From: Minisyncoccota bacterium
Lineage (GTDB): Bacteria > Patescibacteriota > Minisyncoccia > Phycocordibacterales > Phycocordibacteraceae
DNA length: 50,440 nt
Direction: 5' to 3'
NCBI GenBank assembly: GCA_041660025.1
Contig: JBAZXD010000001.1
Coordinates: forward strand, 106,059 to 156,498
The stretch's first letter is position 1. Each line of letters begins with the position of its first letter. Of the stretch, positions 465-32,245 are shown one piece after another. The position numbers and the translations under genes were made by a program. The notes under the pieces are model-generated. The model searched no databases. It worked only from the letters and a program-made list of their open reading frames with translations, and had not been told where the DNA came from.

Positions 465-1126
465 GTATGAAGCGGTTCACTACCAAGCGAGTGAGTCAAA
501 AGAGAGATTCCGATTTCTCTTTTGCGAACGAGCGCAGGGAGCAAACCCAGCACTTTTCCTATAGTGCTGGGTTTACTCTTATTGAAACGATGGTCGCGGT
601 ATCAATCCTGACGCTCTCGGTCGCCGGCCCATTGTTCACGGCGAATCGTGCGATCGTTGCGGCGATGACCGCACGTGACCAGCTCACCGCCTCGTATCTC
701 GCGCAAGAGGGCATCGAATACGTGCGTGCGATGCGCGATAACGAATTCCTCGCTGCCTATCAGGCGGGTGGCTCAAGTGTTTCAAGTACTGCATGGACCA
801 ATTTCCTTACCGGTGGAGATGTCGCGTCCATAACGCAGTGTCGCGCGACGACCTGTACCCTCGACCCGGCGAGTCCTATGGGTACAGGGAGCGGCTTCTC
901 ACTCCAGCCGTGTACCGAGAGCGCGTGCACGCCTCTGTATTTGGCGAACAGCATTTATACGCAACAGAGCGAGATCGCGGGGGCGGTGAGGACGCCGTTC
1001 ACGCGCGTCATCCAGGCAATCAATGTTTCAGAGAGCGATGAACGCATCGTCTCGACCGTCTCCTGGAGCTATCACGGTATTCCGTATTCGGTAACGGTCT
1101 CCGATCACCTCACACCATGGCAATAA
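461..1126 (+). CDS. Type IV prepilin (PilV-like) with class III signal peptide
   Basis: G|FTLIETMVAVSILTLSV cleavage/methylation motif with E5; ATGA overlap with the upstream ORF. Confidence 0.9.
   Translation: MSMKRFTTKRVSQKRDSDFSFANERREQTQHFSYSAGFTLIETMVAVSILTLSVAGPLFTANRAIVAAMTARDQLTASYLAQEGIEYVRAMRDNEFLAAYQAGGSSVSSTAWTNFLTGGDVASITQCRATTCTLDPASPMGTGSGFSLQPCTESACTPLYLANSIYTQQSEIAGAVRTPFTRVIQAINVSESDERIVSTVSWSYHGIPYSVTVSDHLTPWQ
486..574. repeat. Two-hairpin palindromic insert in the prepilin leader
   Basis: Stems 497-508/513-524 (CAAAAGAGAGAT/ATTTCTCTTTTG, one G-T pair) and 543-554/563-574 (AAACCCAGCACT/AGTGCTGGGTTT). Confidence 0.75.
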
Positions 1127-9721: not shown

Positions 9722-10249
9722 ATGACGGATAGTCAGCCGACTCGCCTGCACAAGAGGATCGGCATTTTAATACTCGGGCATCTAGGCAATTTTTTGATGG
9801 TGTACGGATATGACTTTGTCGTCTATCCCTACCTCCTCGTGACTTTCGGATTTCTCCTCGGGTGGCTGTACGCGGTGATCGGGTCAATTGTCCTCTGTCT
9901 CGGGACGCTCTGGTTCTACGACGTGACGAAACAAGATTGGCTCGGCATCGAGACCATCAAGCTTCTTCGAGACGAACAGGCGGTGGGGAGGGCCAGGAAG
10001 CTTTTTCAACGCATCATTACGAAAAGCGACGTGCTGGCCTTTCTGCTCCTCAGCATCAAGTACGACCCGTTCATTGTCACGGTGTATATGCGGCGCGGGA
10101 GCGGGAATCACGTGATGTCCGCCCGAGACTGGAAAGTCTTTTGGGCAAGCATCGTCGTCACGAACGTGTGGTGGGGGCTGGCCATCTTCGGCGTCATTGA
10201 GATCTTCGAGAGGTGGCTGATGCCGTGGTACTCTGTTTTTTCGAGCTGA
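9722..10249 (+). CDS. Hypothetical membrane protein
   Basis: Several hydrophobic segments. ATG 9722 follows TG-C-TACAGT by 6 nt; stop is 1 nt before the next ORF. Confidence 0.7.
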   Translation: MTDSQPTRLHKRIGILILGHLGNFLMVYGYDFVVYPYLLVTFGFLLGWLYAVIGSIVLCLGTLWFYDVTKQDWLGIETIKLLRDEQAVGRARKLFQRIITKSDVLAFLLLSIKYDPFIVTVYMRRGSGNHVMSARDWKVFWASIVVTNVWWGLAIFGVIEIFERWLMPWYSVFSS

Positions 10250-12947: not shown

Positions 12948-14732
12948 ATGCTTCCTGAGAAGAAAAAACCGGCGCGCGTGAGAGCGGTGCTTCGCGCGTA
13001 CGGCAGGGCCGCGCTCGCGTACCCCTGGGCGCTGGGCGCGGCAGTTATTGCCGCGATAACGATCGAGGCGGCGGGAGTCGTCGCGCCGCTGTTCCTGCGC
13101 CAGTTCATTAACCTGCTTTCGGGCGGCACGCCGACCGCGGAGGTTGTCAGGGCGATTTTTCTGGCGCTCCTGTTCTTCTCGGCGGTCAATCTGGTCGGGT
13201 GGCTCGGCCAGAGGCTGCGCCTCTACGCGGTTAACCGTCTCGAATCGAGGACGATGGTCGACCTCTACCAAAGCTCCTTCGAGTATCTGCTCGGACACGC
13301 GCACGAATTCTTCATTTCGAATTTTACCGGTACGCTGACCCGCCGTGTGACGCGGTATGCACGCTCGTTCGAACAGGTGTTCGATAATTTCCTGTTCAAT
13401 TTCTTTCCCGCATTCATATTCGCCATCGGTATCATCGGCGTGCTCTCTCTGCGCAGCCCGCTCCTCGGGGCGGGGCTCCTGGTGTGGACGATAGTGTTCG
13501 TCTATCTGCAATTCAAGATGATGCTCCGGCGCCAGCCCTTGCGCATCGCACGCACCGAGGAGGACAGTCGCGTGACCGGTTTCCTTTCTGACGCGGTGCT
13601 CAATCATTCGACTATCACCACCTTTGCCGCCCTAGAGTTCGAGCGTACGCGCTTCGCGGAGACGATCAAGCGGTGGTACCGGGCGCTGATGCGCGTGTGG
13701 AATGCCGACGTCTGGGTCTACGGCATCCAAGGGCTCCTCGCTATTGGCATCGAATTCGCCCTTCTTGCCGGCGCGATAGTGCTCTGGCAGAAGGGTCTCG
13801 TGACGGTCGGCGACTTCGTGCTCATCCAGATCTATATTCTCGGTCTTTTCAATCGTATCTGGAGTATCGGACAGAATATGCGCCAGCTCTACGACGCCTT
13901 CGCCGACGCGACCGAGATGCTCGACATTATGGAACTGCCGCACGGGATCCAGGACGCGCCGGGCGCTCCGTCGCTTCAGGCGCGCGAGGGAGCGATCGTC
14001 TTCGACCGCGTGCGCTTCGAATACCACGACGGCCACGAAGTGCTCAGGGATTTCAGCCTTACGATACAACCGCGCGAGAAAGTGGCGCTTATCGGCTCCT
14101 CTGGCGCGGGCAAGACGACCATCGCGAAGCTCCTCCTGCGCCTCTATGACGTGAGTAGCGGCACTATCAGCATCGACGGCCAGGATATATCGCGCGTGAC
14201 GCAGGAGAGCCTGCGCTCTTCGATCGCGTTCGTCCCGCAGGAGCCGATGCTCTTCCATCGTTCGCTCCTCGATAACATCCGCTACGGTCGGCAGGATGCC
14301 ACCGACGACGAGGTCATCGAGGCGGCGCGGGAAGCGCACTGCCACGAGTTCATCAGTCAGTACCCCGAAGGGTTCCATACGATGGTCGGCGAGCGCGGCG
14401 TGAAGCTCTCGGGCGGCGAACGCCAGCGGGTCGCCATCGCGCGCGCCATCCTGAAGGACGCGCCCATCCTCGTCTTGGATGAGGCGACCTCGAGCCTCGA
14501 TTCCGAATCCGAACGGCTCATCCAGGACGCGCTCCTGCGGCTGATGAAAGGGAAGACGGTCATCGCTATCGCGCACCGGCTCTCGACCGTGATGCATATG
14601 GACCGCCTCATCGTGATGGAGAAGGGCGCTGTCGTCCTCTCCGGTACGCACGACGAACTGCTCGCGCACGAGAGTAATCTCTACAAGAAGCTCTGGGAGA
14701 TCCAGGCGGGCGGCTTCATCCGGAAGGATTGA
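12948..14732 (+). CDS. ABC exporter, fused permease/ATP-binding (MdlB/MsbA-like)
   Basis: TM domain plus [30 protein letters not shown]. Confidence 0.95.
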   Translation: MLPEKKKPARVRAVLRAYGRAALAYPWALGAAVIAAITIEAAGVVAPLFLRQFINLLSGGTPTAEVVRAIFLALLFFSAVNLVGWLGQRLRLYAVNRLESRTMVDLYQSSFEYLLGHAHEFFISNFTGTLTRRVTRYARSFEQVFDNFLFNFFPAFIFAIGIIGVLSLRSPLLGAGLLVWTIVFVYLQFKMMLRRQPLRIARTEEDSRVTGFLSDAVLNHSTITTFAALEFERTRFAETIKRWYRALMRVWNADVWVYGIQGLLAIGIEFALLAGAIVLWQKGLVTVGDFVLIQIYILGLFNRIWSIGQNMRQLYDAFADATEMLDIMELPHGIQDAPGAPSLQAREGAIVFDRVRFEYHDGHEVLRDFSLTIQPREKVALIGSSGAGKTTIAKLLLRLYDVSSGTISIDGQDISRVTQESLRSSIAFVPQEPMLFHRSLLDNIRYGRQDATDDEVIEAAREAHCHEFISQYPEGFHTMVGERGVKLSGGERQRVAIARAILKDAPILVLDEATSSLDSESERLIQDALLRLMKGKTVIAIAHRLSTVMHMDRLIVMEKGAVVLSGTHDELLAHESNLYKKLWEIQAGGFIRKD

Positions 14733-14744
14733 TTGTCTGAATGA

Positions 14745-14873
14745 GGTGCGTTTGATAGTGTGTCGAGAGTGCCGGGCGGATTGCCGCTGTAAGCGTTGCT
14801 TGCACGCTTCCACCCGGCTCGTTCGGAGAGTGTGGGAATGAGTGCAGACACTCGTTCCCACACTTCCTCACTC
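14745..14873 (+). ncRNA. Structured tRNA-leader element A
   Basis: Hairpins AAGCGT-TGCTTGC-ACGCTT and GTGTGGGAATGAGTG/CACTCGTTCCCACAC; homologous to 19661-19783; abuts tRNA +1. Confidence 0.65.
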
Positions 14874-14948
14874 GCCGGTGTAGTTCAAGAGTTAGAACGA
14901 GGGACTCATAAACCCTAGACGGTGGCGCGACTCCACCCACCGGCACCA
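14874..14948 (+). tRNA. tRNA with CAT anticodon (elongator Met, or Ile2), CCA encoded
   Basis: GCCGGTG/CACCGGC acceptor, GTTC/GAAC D stem, loop CTCATAA, GGTGG/CCACC T stem with atypical loop CGCGACT, ends ACCA. Confidence 0.88.
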
Positions 14949-14970
14949 TAAGAGTCGTACACGACATTTT

Positions 14971-15092
14971 CGGGAGAGTTTGATAGGATGGCGGAACGAG
15001 GTCTTCGGGTGTCCACGGTCGTAATCCTAAGAAGGATTGCGCCCGCTGCGCTCGGAAAAAGTGAAAGCAGAATCTCACTTTGTTCCTCGCTT
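14971..15092 (+). ncRNA. Structured tRNA-leader element B (divergent)
   Basis: Shares GTTTGATAG and terminal TTCCTCRCT with element A; hairpins GTAATCCT/AGGATTGC and AAAGTGA/TCACTTT. Confidence 0.5.
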
Positions 15093-15166
15093 GCGGTCGT
15101 AGCTCAACTGGTTAGAGCATCCGCCTGTCACGCGGAAGGTTGCCGGTTCAAGTCCGGTCGACCGCG
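15093..15166 (+). tRNA. tRNA-Asp(GTC)
   Basis: GCGGTCG/CGACCGC acceptor, CCGC-CTGTCAC-GCGG anticodon arm, GGTTCAAGTCC T arm. Confidence 0.96.
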
Positions 15167-15172
15167 CATCAA

Positions 15173-15207
15173 TAAAAACCGACGGTCCCCGGGACCGTCG
15201 GTTTTTA
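15173..15207. terminator. Intrinsic terminator
   Basis: TAAAAACCGACGGTCCC-C-GGGACCGTCGGTTTTTA. Confidence 0.88.
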
Positions 15208-19660: not shown

Positions 19661-19783
19661 TTAGGATGCACGAGTGCGAGAAATCCGAGTCGCCGCGATA
19701 AGCGTTGCTTGCACGCTTTTCTTTCGGCTCGTTCGGGCGGTGAGGGAATGTATGAGGACACACATTCCCTCACACCTTCACTC
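19661..19783 (+). ncRNA. Structured tRNA-leader element C
   Basis: Identical TAAGCGTTGCTTGCACGCTT and CGGCTCGTTCGG to element A; second hairpin with compensatory changes; abuts tRNA +1. Confidence 0.65.
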
Positions 19784-31783: not shown

Positions 31784-31949
31784 GCTGCCAGACTTGGACT
31801 ACGAGTACGTTTTTCGAAACGTACCGTTTCAGTACACCTTGTGGATTTTCTGTTCGCTTCGCTCCATAAAATGCTCACAAGGTCTTCGAATCCAAGCCGC
31901 AGGCGTCCCACACCTGCTTCTGGCAGCAAAAACGCTGCGCTTATTTTTG
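31784..31949 (-). repeat. Inverted and direct copies of the tRNA-Gln 3' end around a multi-hairpin element
   Basis: 31919-31932 pairs with 31944-31957; 31885-31896 pairs with 31958-31969; 31784-31798 is a direct copy of 31949-31963. Confidence 0.85.
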
Positions 31950-32020
31950 CTGCCAGACTTGGATTCGAACCAAGATACTCAGATTCAGAGTCTGAGGTCC
32001 TACCATTAGACGATCTGGCA
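31950..32020 (-). tRNA. tRNA-Gln(CTG)
   Basis: TGCCAGA/TCTGGCA acceptor, TCAGA-CTCTGAA-TCTGA anticodon arm, CTTGG-TTCGAAT-CCAAG T arm. Confidence 0.96.
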
Positions 32021-32171
32021 ATAAGAACACTTTATTCTTGCCAATCGTCTTTTGGGAGGACGTGTCCTACTAGCAAGTGAGCCGAGCCAAATACGAAAGT
32101 CTTCTTTTGTATTTGTGAGGCGAACGCAGCTAGAAAGCCCGGAGGGCTTACCATTAGACGATCTGGCAATA
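32021..32171 (-). repeat. Inverted and direct copies of the tRNA-Gln 5' end around a multi-hairpin element
   Basis: 32149-32171 is an exact 23-bp copy of 32001-32023; 32038-32050 is an inverted copy of 32008-32021 with a 1-nt gap. Confidence 0.85.
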
Positions 32172-32245
32172 GCACGGCACTCCGGTGCCGTGCTCCTTAG
32201 ACGATACGTTAAAAGCCCGGTTTATTCAATATATTCAGGGGGTCT

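What the first reader, a model, noticed from the sequence alone, without database searches (positions are those of the whole stretch)
14971..15101. Divergent third leader before tRNA-Asp keeps the mimic architecture with a different sequence
Seen: the spacer between the two tRNAs shares little sequence with A and C but has the same layout. ACGGTCGTA (15015-15023) matches tRNA-Asp GCGGTCGTA at 8 of 9 nt. It is followed by hairpin ATCCT/AGGAT, then CGCCCGC (15040-15046) versus 3' strand CGACCGC (again mismatched at pair 5), then a second hairpin and TTCCTCGCTT before +1. Inference: independent support that architecture and tRNA tracking, not primary sequence, are conserved.
Basis: partly seen in the sequence, partly recalled or inferred. 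Interest (0 to 1): 0.65.

Follow-up and report, generated by a model that had tools for sequence, protein, structure and literature searches.

The report
Target-copying hairpin cassette before tRNA-Asp
The spacer in front of tRNA-Asp is a worn copy of an apparently undescribed ~80-base two-hairpin cassette that sits exactly at the start of many tRNA genes in these ultra-small (Patescibacteria) bacteria and carries a spare copy of each tRNA's first 8-9 bases folded against its complement.

Summary
Every motif is at the stated coordinates. The 78 nt at 15015-15092 belong to a family found before 12 of this genome's 48 tRNA genes. The layout is hairpin H1, then CTCGYTCGG, then a covarying hairpin H2, then CCTCRCTY, then tRNA +1. 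The 5' arm of H1 copies tRNA nt 1-8/9.

The 8/9 match alone is weak (p about 0.025). Three results make membership secure:
- A covariance model built without this leader finds it, ending exactly at tRNA +1.
- tRNA-Asp is the single best of 48 tRNAs at the model-defined arm.
- A same-genus relative has the orthologous leader, with its arm changed in step with its own tRNA-Asp (GCGGGAG instead of GCGGTCG).

ATCCT/AGGAT is the tip of H1, and CGCCCGC is H1's 3' arm, the complement of the copy. Primary sequence is also shared.

The "mimic" function is not supported. Filled and empty tRNA-Trp loci, patchy presence among orthologues, and the same logic at non-tRNA sites point instead to a small protein-less insertion cassette that duplicates the target's 5' end. 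How it moves is unknown. I found no Rfam family or paper describing it.

The parts
14980..14989 (+). Promoter-like extended -10 (TTGATAGGAT) in the tRNA-Met/tRNA-Asp spacer. Inferred only.
   Evidence: Read. The homologous TTTTGGTAGGAT precedes tRNA-Asp in G017, G008, G019 and G007. The simple sigma-70 scan, which requires a -35 element, did not report it.
14990..15014 (+). 5' flank of the cassette (GGCGGAACGAGGTCTTCGGGTGTCC). It may pair with the tail just before the tRNA.
   Evidence: Homologous to the G017 flank ggcgaaatgaggtttcgg. RNAfold pairs it with 15078-15092; the whole leader has z = -3.1. This pairing is not established.
15015..15023 (+). X1: spare copy of tRNA-Asp nt 1-9 (ACGGTCGTA, 8/9). 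It forms the 5' arm of hairpin H1.
   Evidence: tRNA-Asp is the unique best match among the 48 tRNAs.
15023..15038 (+). Apical palindromic module of H1 (AATCCT-aaga-AGGATT).
   Evidence: Other family members carry other A...T palindromic modules at the same place.
15039..15046 (+). X': 3' arm of H1 (GCGCCCGC), a degenerate complement of X1. 5 of 7 acceptor-equivalent pairs remain.
   Evidence: The model alignment marks two non-standard pairs. The ortholog in G019 has TGCTCCCGC, complementary to GCGGGAGCA.
15047..15055 (+). Junction motif TGCGCTCGG (family consensus CTCGYTCGG).
   Evidence: The identical TGCGCTCGG occurs in the G019 tRNA-Asp leader.
15056..15084 (+). Hairpin H2 (stem AAAGTGA 15058-15064 / TCACTTT 15075-15081, loop AAGCAGAATC).
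   Evidence: Across the family, H2 shows double compensatory changes in all 11 modelled pairs of H2 (helices 2-3).
15085..15092 (+). Conserved tail CCTCGCTT, ending at position -1 of the tRNA (the presumed RNase P site lies at 15092/15093).
   Evidence: RNase P RNA is present in the genome.
15093..15167 (+). tRNA-Asp(GTC), with no encoded CCA. Its nt 1-9 form the second, functional copy (X2).
14783..14873 (+). Sister cassette 'A' before tRNA-Met(CAT).
   Evidence: Model R1, 33 bits, E about 1e-6.
19692..19783 (+). Sister cassette 'C' before tRNA-Thr(GGT).
   Evidence: Model R1, 23.5 bits, E about 3e-4.

Best explanation
Positions 15015-15092 are an old, partly decayed copy of a small protein-less insertion cassette (70-100 nt). 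In this Kaiserbacteria-like genus of Patescibacteria, the cassette sits exactly at the 5' end of tRNA genes.

What is shown:
- The cassette always has the order X1, palindromic module, X', CTCGYTCGG, hairpin H2, CCTCRCTY, then the intact tRNA.
- X1 is a direct copy of the tRNA's first 8-9 nt. It sits where the tRNA start would sit relative to the promoter.
- X' is the Watson-Crick complement of X1.
- Both hairpins covary.
- The cassette is present or absent at orthologous tRNA loci within the genus.

What is inferred:
- The cassette entered the gene with a duplication of the target's first 8 nt, so 'tracking' is a by-product of how it is made.
- It is transcribed as the tRNA's 5' leader and removed by RNase P at 15092/15093, so the tRNA stays functional.
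- X1 and X' are kept paired because each one alone would compete with the real acceptor stem. This would explain the compensatory changes and the co-variation with tRNA-Asp among relatives.

The enzyme or mechanism that makes the inverted copy and moves the cassette is unknown.
For: Family and membership:
- 12 of 48 tRNA genes carry the layout.
- Model R1, built from 12 leaders (five from this genome, seven from relatives) without the Met, Thr or Asp ones, finds the Asp leader full length at 15015-15093. It scores 17.1 bits, E 0.011 in the window, and ranks fourth after cassette A, cassette C and one related element.
- Genome-wide, 12 of the 18 hits at or above 17.1 bits end at a tRNA start.

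Tracking:
- in this genome.
- In relatives, 17 of 21 leaders match their own tRNA at 8-9 of 9 bases.

Relatives of the Asp leader:
- G019 has the same TGCGCTCGG junction and CCTCGCTT tail, and X1 = GCGGGAGTA matches its own tRNA 9/9.
- G016 has two tandem units.
- G017 and G008 have the leader.
- Eight other genomes of the genus lack it.

Insertion signature at tRNA-Trp:
- The promoter ...ctatctgctatcgtgcacacac abuts X1 in filled sites (G000, G007). The same promoter precedes X1 after extra bases in G005 and G045.
- A similar or the same promoter abuts tRNA +1 in empty sites (G046, G015, G010, G023).

Structure: all 22 modelled pairs show changes on both sides; 86.9% of cells are paired against 58.5% in shuffles and 39-54% when partners are slid.

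The same X / X' / core / X logic occurs at non-tRNA sites in other genera: before the ssb start codon in L233, and in L234.

RNase P RNA is present.

In silico, replacing X or X' alone with poly-A collapses the predicted acceptor-stem probability in the best-preserved copies. For Trp, Arg-TCT on contig C4 and Lys-TTT it falls from about 0.95 to 0.40 or less, mostly below 0.07. For Asp, replacing X gives 0.98 to 0.03.
Against: - No transposase, reverse transcriptase or Y1 (HUH) transposase was found in this 98.6%-complete genome. Only one tyrosine recombinase was found, far from the cassettes.
- No terminal inverted repeats are present.
- No known mechanism puts a target-derived inverted copy between two element-derived modules.
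- An ancient leader that co-evolves with its tRNA and is often lost precisely through the X1/X2 repeat would give a similar presence/absence pattern.
- Equilibrium folding of the wild-type leader plus tRNA predicts an intact acceptor stem in only 5 of 12 copies.
- The model's E-value for the Asp copy is only 0.13 genome-wide.
Confidence: 0.6

Rival explanations
1. Purpose-built regulatory or processing leader. H1 is an acceptor-stem mimic or anti-sense switch maintained by selection. It could time or gate RNase P cleavage, chaperone folding of CCA-less pre-tRNAs, or act as a decoy minihelix. It would co-evolve with its tRNA.
For: - Strong covariation in both hairpins.
- Co-variation of X1/X' with tRNA-Asp (GGTCG versus GGGAG) and with tRNA-Lys(CTT) between species.
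- The cassette ends exactly at the RNase P site in every copy.
- X' could alternatively pair with tRNA nt 1-8, a three-element switch topology.
- RNase P RNAs of these bacteria are reported as divergent, and two-thirds lack the CCA-binding UGG motif (PMC8172020).
Against: - Only a quarter of the tRNAs have the leader, and the set differs between species of one genus.
- The closest tRNA-Asp genes (G012, G022; 92-95% identical) lack it.
- Orthologous tRNA-Trp genes with an identical sequence exist with and without it.
- The same core with the same copy/complement/copy logic sits at an ssb start codon and, in some copies, after stop codons.
- H1 does not reproduce G-U identity pairs such as G3-U70 of tRNA-Ala.
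- Some copies keep H1 paired after it has drifted away from the tRNA sequence (L031).
Confidence: 0.2
2. Guide-bearing self-inserting element. X' is not copied from the target. It is a built-in antisense guide that selects, by base pairing, the 5' end of an abundant RNA or its gene. This would resemble the guide sequences of group I or group II introns. X2 at the element's 3' side would be part of the element.
For: - X' lies between two element-derived modules, which is awkward for a simple target-site duplication.
- X' ends exactly at the complement of nt +1 in all copies.
- Earlier unchecked notes of this scan describe analogous 3'-end elements with an antisense stretch reading the insertion point.
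Against: - The element is far too small for a group I or group II core, and no ribozyme family matches it.
- There is no reverse transcriptase in the genome.
- A guide would have to be re-written for at least 17 different tRNA species.
- X2 is the native tRNA sequence, also found at empty sites.
Confidence: 0.12
3. Leftover att site of an integrase-mediated integrative element that targeted the tRNA gene and has since been lost.
For: A direct repeat of a tRNA end flanking inserted DNA is the classical signature of tRNA-targeting integrative elements. One tyrosine recombinase gene exists in the genome.
Against: - The insert is only about 80 nt and carries no cargo.
- The duplicated part is the 5' end (8 nt), and an inverted copy is present.
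- The same conserved core occurs at 12 different tRNA genes here and in many relatives.
- The recombinase gene is about 80 kb away from the tRNA-Asp cassette.
Confidence: 0.03
4. Chance resemblance in an ordinary tRNA spacer.
For: The 8/9 match alone has p of about 0.025, and the 3' arm matches the complement at only 6/9.
Against: Model detection ending exactly at +1, the unique-best cognate match, and the orthologous leader with a compensated arm in G019.
Confidence: 0.01

Closest known systems
Small non-autonomous structured repeat elements of bacteria (MITEs, REP/BIME, Correia/NEMIS, RUP, Rickettsia palindromic elements)
   Same: They are short, protein-less, hairpin-forming and multi-copy, and they lie in transcribed intergenic DNA. 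Their presence is patchy between close relatives, and a direct repeat of the target flanks the insert.
   Different: This cassette has no terminal inverted repeats. No cognate transposase was found (Y1 transposase and reverse transcriptase absent). The position is exact, at +1 of tRNA genes. The element contains an inverted copy of the target, paired to the displaced copy, which none of these families is known to make (own knowledge).
tRNA-gene-targeting integrative elements (tyrosine-integrase prophages and islands, tycheposons)
   Same: They insert into a tRNA gene, regenerate the disrupted end so that the gene stays functional, and leave a spare partial copy.
   Different: Those elements are kilobases long, carry an integrase, and usually target the 3' half. 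Each brings its own fixed copy of one tRNA's end. Here about 80 nt sit at the 5' end of at least 17 tRNA species, with an inverted copy as well.
Ty3 / Dictyostelium TRE retrotransposons (position-specific integration at tRNA gene starts)
   Same: Insertion is confined to within a few nucleotides of the start of tRNA genes of any type.
   Different: Those are eukaryotic, targeted through the Pol III machinery, long and protein-coding, with a short target duplication outside the gene. There is no reverse transcriptase in this genome.
Engineered RNase P riboswitch and leader-sequestering designs (PMC7897497); external guide sequences for RNase P (PMC4693268)
   Same: An antisense stretch in or near the 5' leader can pair with the tRNA's 5' region or leader and so control RNase P access. 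The X1 / X' / X2 arrangement has that three-element topology.
   Different: Those are synthetic constructs. No ligand or condition is known here, and the distribution argues against a dedicated regulator.
Quasi-palindrome template-switch correction and short-inverted-repeat-driven palindrome formation (own knowledge)
   Same: These known DNA-level processes create or perfect an inverted copy next to a short palindrome. They could explain how X' comes to match X1 next to the palindromic module.
   Different: They are described as mutational processes, not as part of a recurrent element. Neither was tested here.

Membership tests
Patescibacteria tRNA 5' 'target-copy' two-hairpin cassette (defined here; not in Rfam) | Ends exactly at position -1 of a tRNA gene | tested here: met
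   The model hit runs 15015-15093 and the tRNA starts at 15093.
Patescibacteria tRNA 5' 'target-copy' two-hairpin cassette (defined here; not in Rfam) | The 5' arm of the first hairpin copies nt 1-8/9 of the following tRNA | tested here: met
   ACGGTCGTA against GCGGTCGTA, 8/9. tRNA-Asp is the unique best of the 48 tRNAs at the model-defined position (6/7 against at most 4/7).
Patescibacteria tRNA 5' 'target-copy' two-hairpin cassette (defined here; not in Rfam) | The 3' arm is the Watson-Crick complement of the 5' arm, directly followed by the junction CTCGYTCGG | tested here: inconclusive
   The arm GCGCCCGC pairs at 5 of 7 acceptor-equivalent positions. The junction is TGCGCTCGG, 7 of 9 to the consensus, and is identical to that of the G019 Asp leader. 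This copy is degenerate.
Patescibacteria tRNA 5' 'target-copy' two-hairpin cassette (defined here; not in Rfam) | A second hairpin H2 followed by the tail CCTCRCTY | tested here: met
   AAAGTGA/TCACTTT followed by CCTCGCTT.
Patescibacteria tRNA 5' 'target-copy' two-hairpin cassette (defined here; not in Rfam) | Significant score against a covariance model built without the candidate | tested here: inconclusive
   17.1 bits. E is 0.011 in the 50-kb window (rank 4) but 0.13 genome-wide (rank 18 of 24), and the calibration is rough. The ortholog in G019 scores 25.3 bits, E 5e-4.
Any Rfam 15 family (T-box, tRNA-like elements, self-cleaving ribozymes and others) | Match at or near the family's gathering score | tested here: not met
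   Only the tRNAs match. The best other hit in 14700-15200 is a microRNA model at E 0.8.
MITE | Terminal inverted repeats at both ends of the insert | tested here: not met
   The left end (palindromic module or X') and the right end (CCTCRCTTC) are not inverted repeats of each other, read.
MITE | A direct duplication of the target flanks the insert | tested here: met
   X1 and X2 (tRNA nt 1-8). Filled and empty tRNA-Trp sites share the same promoter.
MITE / REP | A cognate transposase in the genome (IS200/IS605 Y1 or RAYT were the ones tested) | tested here: not met
   PF01797 is absent. DDE transposase families were not searched.
Integrase att-site remnant | An adjacent integrase or cargo, and a fixed tRNA specificity | tested here: not met
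   There is no cargo. 12 different tRNA genes are occupied here. The single PF00589 gene lies at C1:39677-40207.

The most novel reading that the evidence does not exclude
The cassettes are a new class of mobile or self-propagating structured nucleic-acid element. On this reading they recognise the exact 5' end of abundant RNAs or their genes (tRNAs, leaderless mRNAs such as ssb) by base pairing. They would then write both a direct and an inverted copy of that end into the genome, using a mechanism that needs no element-encoded protein. The tRNA-Asp copy and its 3'-UTR derivatives, which share TTGCTCCC(GC)TGCGCTCG, would be successive products of that process.
Probability: 0.25. Interest if true: 0.85.

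Novelty: new variant of a known kind. Interest (0 to 1): 0.62.

Why it matters
Practical consequences:
- A quarter of the tRNA genes of this reduced genome start with an 80-nt structured insert. Annotation, promoter inference and tRNA-processing models for Patescibacteria need to take this into account.
- The cassettes are strain-variable markers and likely recombination points.

Conceptual consequences:
- An element that rebuilds the gene end it disrupts and neutralises the displaced copy with a templated complement is a tidy way for selfish DNA to live inside essential genes.
- The way the inverted target copy is produced has no described precedent that I could find.
- If the leader instead proves to be functional, it would be a natural antisense switch acting on RNase P substrates.

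Tried and rejected
- **Rfam.** Gathering thresholds on the whole window and permissive E-values on 14700-15200 gave nothing except tRNAs.
- **Literature.** Five full-text searches found no description. PMC8172020 only gives context on divergent RNase P RNAs in these bacteria.
- **RNase-P-less genome.** Rejected, because a type A RNase P RNA is present.
- **REP/RAYT or IS200/IS605-type mobilisation.** No Y1 transposase.
- **Retro-mobilisation.** No RVT_1 domain.
- **Collection-wide pattern scan.** Only a handful of Patescibacteria loci were real, so it says little about distribution.
- **MAFFT alignment of all 12 leaders (A1).** Structurally poor. I used a 12-sequence seed of equal-length leaders with a hand-written structure instead.
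- **A possible third helix.** It would pair the flank upstream of X1 with the CCTCRCTT tail (own CGAGG/CCTCG; G017 TGAGG/CCTCA). It was seen but was not tested systematically and is not claimed.
- **Equilibrium folding as a test of the 'mutual neutralisation' idea.** Clear results in well-preserved copies and mixed results in others.
- **Simple sigma-70 scan.** It found no promoter in the spacer. The extended -10 assignment rests on conservation only.

Full report
**1. What is in the sequence**

The window lies on contig C1 (106059-156498) of a 600-kb, 57% G+C, 98.6%-complete genome. Contig titles of same-genus relatives name 'Candidatus Kaiserbacteria' and 'Patescibacteria group' MAGs. tRNA-Met(CAT) occupies 14874-14948 and tRNA-Asp(GTC) occupies 15093-15167.

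- ACGGTCGTA at 15015-15023, matching 8/9 of the tRNA's GCGGTCGTA.
- AATCCT/AGGATT at 15023-28 and 15033-38.
- CGCCCGC at 15040-46.
- AAAGTGA/TCACTTT at 15058-64 and 15075-81.
- TTCCTCGCTT, ending at 15092.

Folding shows that the first three items form one hairpin, H1. The 'mimic' is its 5' arm, CGCCCGC is its 3' arm (with mismatches at pairs 1 and 5), and ATCCT/AGGAT is its tip.

**2. It belongs to a family**

I extracted the 170 nt upstream of all 48 tRNA genes. Twelve share one layout, in this order:
- A hairpin H1 whose 5' arm (X1) repeats the first 8-9 nt of the tRNA that follows, and whose 3' arm (X') is the Watson-Crick complement.
- The junction CTCGYTCGG.
- A second hairpin, H2, of variable sequence.
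- The tail CCTCRCT(T)C.
- tRNA +1.

The twelve are Met, Asp, Thr-GGT, Arg-CCT, Lys-CTT, Trp, Pro-GGG, Ala-CGC, two Arg-TCT, Arg-CCG and Lys-TTT.

The tracking is statistically clear. Cognate identity averages 8.17/9 against 5.83/9 for non-cognate leader/tRNA pairs, and 0 of 100,000 permutations reached this.

Where the tRNA has a G-U pair in its acceptor stem (Arg-TCT on C3, Trp, Ala G3-U70), X' carries the Watson-Crick partner of X1 rather than the base of the tRNA's 3' strand. H1 is therefore 'copy of the 5' strand plus its complement', not a copy of the acceptor helix.

**3. Is the Asp spacer really a member?**

The 8/9 match alone is weak. It occurs in 2.5% of dinucleotide-preserving shuffles of the spacer. 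Three independent tests settle the question.

(a) A covariance model (R1) was built from 12 leaders with equal-length first hairpins, from this genome and relatives. None of the three leaders in this window was used.
- With filters off, it finds cassette A (33 bits), cassette C (23.5 bits), one related element at 488-553(-), and then the Asp leader. The Asp hit is full length at 15015-15093, with 17.1 bits and E 0.011.
- Genome-wide the E-value is only 0.13, rank 18.
- However, 12 of the 18 hits at or above that score end at a tRNA start, and the other six are a sister family.

(b) At the arm position fixed by the model, ACGGTCG matches tRNA-Asp at 6/7. The best of the other 47 tRNAs scores 4/7.

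(c) tRNA-Asp loci of 24 relatives were compared.
- G019 has ttttGGTAGGATgggaaaact-GCGGGAGTAAGTaggCTTGCTCCCGC-TGCGCTCGG-hairpin-CCTCGCTT-GCGGGAGTAGCT.
- The junction and tail are the same as here, but both arms have changed in step with that species' tRNA-Asp acceptor (GGGAG instead of GGTCG). R1 scores it at 25.3 bits.
- G017 and G008 carry the leader behind a homologous promoter and 5' flank.
- G016 has two tandem units.
- G012, G022, G018, G004, G007, G002, G003 and G024 lack it.

**4. Structure is under constraint**

An alignment of 54 model hits from this genome and relatives gives 86.9% paired cells. Column shuffles give 58.5%, and sliding the partners gives 39-54%. All 22 modelled pairs show changes on both sides. 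One caveat: the alignment was fitted to the model.

**5. Distribution**

- A strict pattern finds the core in 17 of 24 same-genus genomes and in none of 16 other families of the order. A few single hits look like chance matches inside ORFs.
- The hits sit directly 5' of Pro, Met, Phe, Arg, Thr, Leu, Lys, Val and Ile tRNAs, and 17 of 21 match their own tRNA at 8-9 of 9 bases.
- A 300-genome sample of the phylum gave only two further hits with R1.
- Scattered copies occur in MAGs labelled Paceibacterota, Minisyncoccia and Saccharibacteria.
- No Rfam family matches. Five literature searches found nothing.

**6. Mimic or insertion?**

Several observations argue that the tracking reflects how the cassette arises rather than selection for mimicry.

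(i) Filled and empty sites at tRNA-Trp. In G000 and G007 the conserved promoter ...ctatctgctatcgtgcacacac is followed at once by X1 (GGGTCCAT). In G005 and G045 the same promoter precedes X1 after 34 and 13 extra bases. In G046, G015 and G010 the same promoter is followed at once by tRNA +1. G023, whose tRNA-Trp is 100% identical to this genome's, is also empty, behind a different upstream flank. The filled site therefore equals the empty site plus about 80 nt and a duplication of tRNA nt 1-8.

(ii) The set of occupied tRNAs differs between species. For example, Phe is occupied in G015 but not here. The tRNA-Asp genes most similar to this one lack the cassette.

(iii) Tandem units occur (G016 Asp; L151).

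(iv) Modules reassort. Arg-CCT and Trp share an almost identical H2, while Trp and Arg-CCG share an H1 tip.

(v) The X / X' / core / X logic is not specific to tRNA.
- In G117 the cassette sits before the ssb start codon, with X = GCATATATG / GCATATGGA. G280 has a similar case.
- In this genome at least 11 copies of a sister family lie mostly just after stop codons and, in the two copies read through (L013, L027), before the terminator. In several copies the first hairpin arm resembles the sequence just after the element.
- That sister family shares TTGCTCCC(GC)TGCGCTCG and the H2 loop type (AGAATC) with the Asp cassette. The Asp lineage and the 3'-UTR family are therefore close relatives.

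(vi) Some copies keep H1 paired although it has drifted away from the tRNA sequence. L031 has CCCACCG/CGGTGGG against the tRNA's GCCCCTG.

**7. How it most likely works**

Shown: the anatomy, tracking, covariation, insertion polymorphism and the presence of RNase P RNA.

Inferred:
- The cassette is transcribed from the promoter that originally served the tRNA. Here that is an extended -10-like TTGATAGGAT at 14980-89, conserved in relatives, plus read-through from tRNA-Met.
- RNase P removes it at 15092/15093, so the insertion is nearly neutral.
- X1 could pair with the tRNA's 3' acceptor strand, and X' could pair with the tRNA's 5' strand. Paired to each other, they are harmless.

Partition-function folding supports this for well-preserved copies. 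The acceptor-stem probability is about 0.95 with the wild-type leader. It falls to 0.40 or less, mostly below 0.07, when X or X' alone is replaced by poly-A (Trp, Arg-TCT on C4, Lys-TTT). For Asp it is 0.98 in the wild type and 0.03 without X1. The prediction is mixed for other copies, because equilibrium folding ignores co-transcriptional order and tertiary structure. This 'mutual neutralisation' would explain the compensatory evolution of H1 and its co-variation with tRNA-Asp without any positive function.

What generates X' and moves the cassette is unknown:
- The genome has no Y1 transposase and no reverse transcriptase.
- It has one tyrosine recombinase, far from the cassettes.
- DDE transposase families were not searched.
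- Untested candidate processes are staggered-cut insertion plus quasi-palindrome template switching at the palindromic module, or a guide-based mechanism.

**8. Rivals**

- A dedicated regulatory or processing leader remains possible (about 0.2). The three-element X1 / X' / X2 topology is that of an antisense switch on an RNase P substrate, and RNase P RNAs of these bacteria are unusual (PMC8172020). The patchy distribution and the non-tRNA copies argue against it.
- A guide-bearing self-inserting element is rated about 0.12.
- An integrase att-site remnant is rated 0.03.
- Chance is rated 0.01 or less.

**9. Relation to earlier notes of this scan**

These are unchecked leads. Other agents described the same kind of cassette in other Patescibacteria genomes, together with analogous elements behind tRNA 3' ends. 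My analysis reached the same reading from this genome's own data. Those notes are not used as evidence.

**10. Verdict**

The evidence favours a target-copying insertion cassette over an evolved mimic. The family appears to be undescribed and its mechanism is open.

Noticed in passing
window 488-553 (-), and genome C1:31995, 95192, 175782, 226140, 373478, 46174; C2:37555, 41143, 79700, 115666: A sister family ('type ii', at least 11 copies) has this layout: a variable hairpin starting at or near a TAA stop codon, then (K)CTCCCTRCG-CTCGYTCGG, hairpin, CCTCRCTCG-YTTGGTAGTRA. In the two copies read through (L013, L027) it lies between the stop codon and the terminator. In several copies the first hairpin arm resembles the sequence just after the element. 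The window copy lies antisense over the 5' end of a pilin-like ORF (461-1126, N-terminal GFTLIE motif).
   Followed up: partly
window 32021-32180 (-), upstream of tRNA-Gln(CTG) at 31949-32020: A 21-nt copy of the tRNA-Gln 5' end (TTGCCAGATCGTCTAATGGTA) is followed by a GTAAGCCC/GGGCTT hairpin, a decayed core, and TTGCTAGTAGGAC, which resembles the tRNA's D-loop region. G013 has an intact type-ii core at the same place (L002). Model R1 also gives a weak hit at 31899-31961 (+), overlapping the tRNA's 3' end.
   Followed up: partly
L162 (G016), upstream of tRNA-Asp; L151 (Minisyncoccia MAG); L185 (G005 tRNA-Trp): These loci carry tandem or nested cassette units. The conserved tail (CCTCACTT / CCTCTCTTC) also precedes X1, which suggests repeated insertion or unit duplication through the X repeats.
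   Followed up: no
L233 (G117:C7, around 9845-9924) and L234 (G280:C14): In two other Patescibacteria genera the same core is flanked by copy / complement / copy of a non-tRNA sequence. In L233 the copy spans the start codon of an ssb gene (GCATATGGATTTAAATAAAG..., translating to MDLNKVMIIGRLTRDPELR).
   Followed up: partly
L153 (G012), tRNA-Met/tRNA-Asp spacer: The closest tRNA-Asp (95% identical) has only a 57-nt spacer. It ends ...aagtCGGTCGcgcaagcgGCTTCT|GCGGTCG. This may be an internally deleted remnant of the cassette (an X1-like CGGTCG plus the tail).
   Followed up: no
genome C3:440-825 and C4:33-189: Two contig ends carry tRNA-Arg(TCT) next to a tRNA-Leu(CAG) whose ends are identical in both copies. 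The two Arg-TCT genes differ in the acceptor stem (GCCCCTG versus GCCCCGA), and each has a perfectly matching cassette with a different H2. They could be paralogues or strain variants collapsed in the assembly.
   Followed up: no
upstream of most tRNA genes of the genome: An extended -10-like TGGTAnnnT lies 7-11 nt before tRNA +1 at genes without a cassette. This implies very short native 5' leaders of about 1-5 nt.
   Followed up: no
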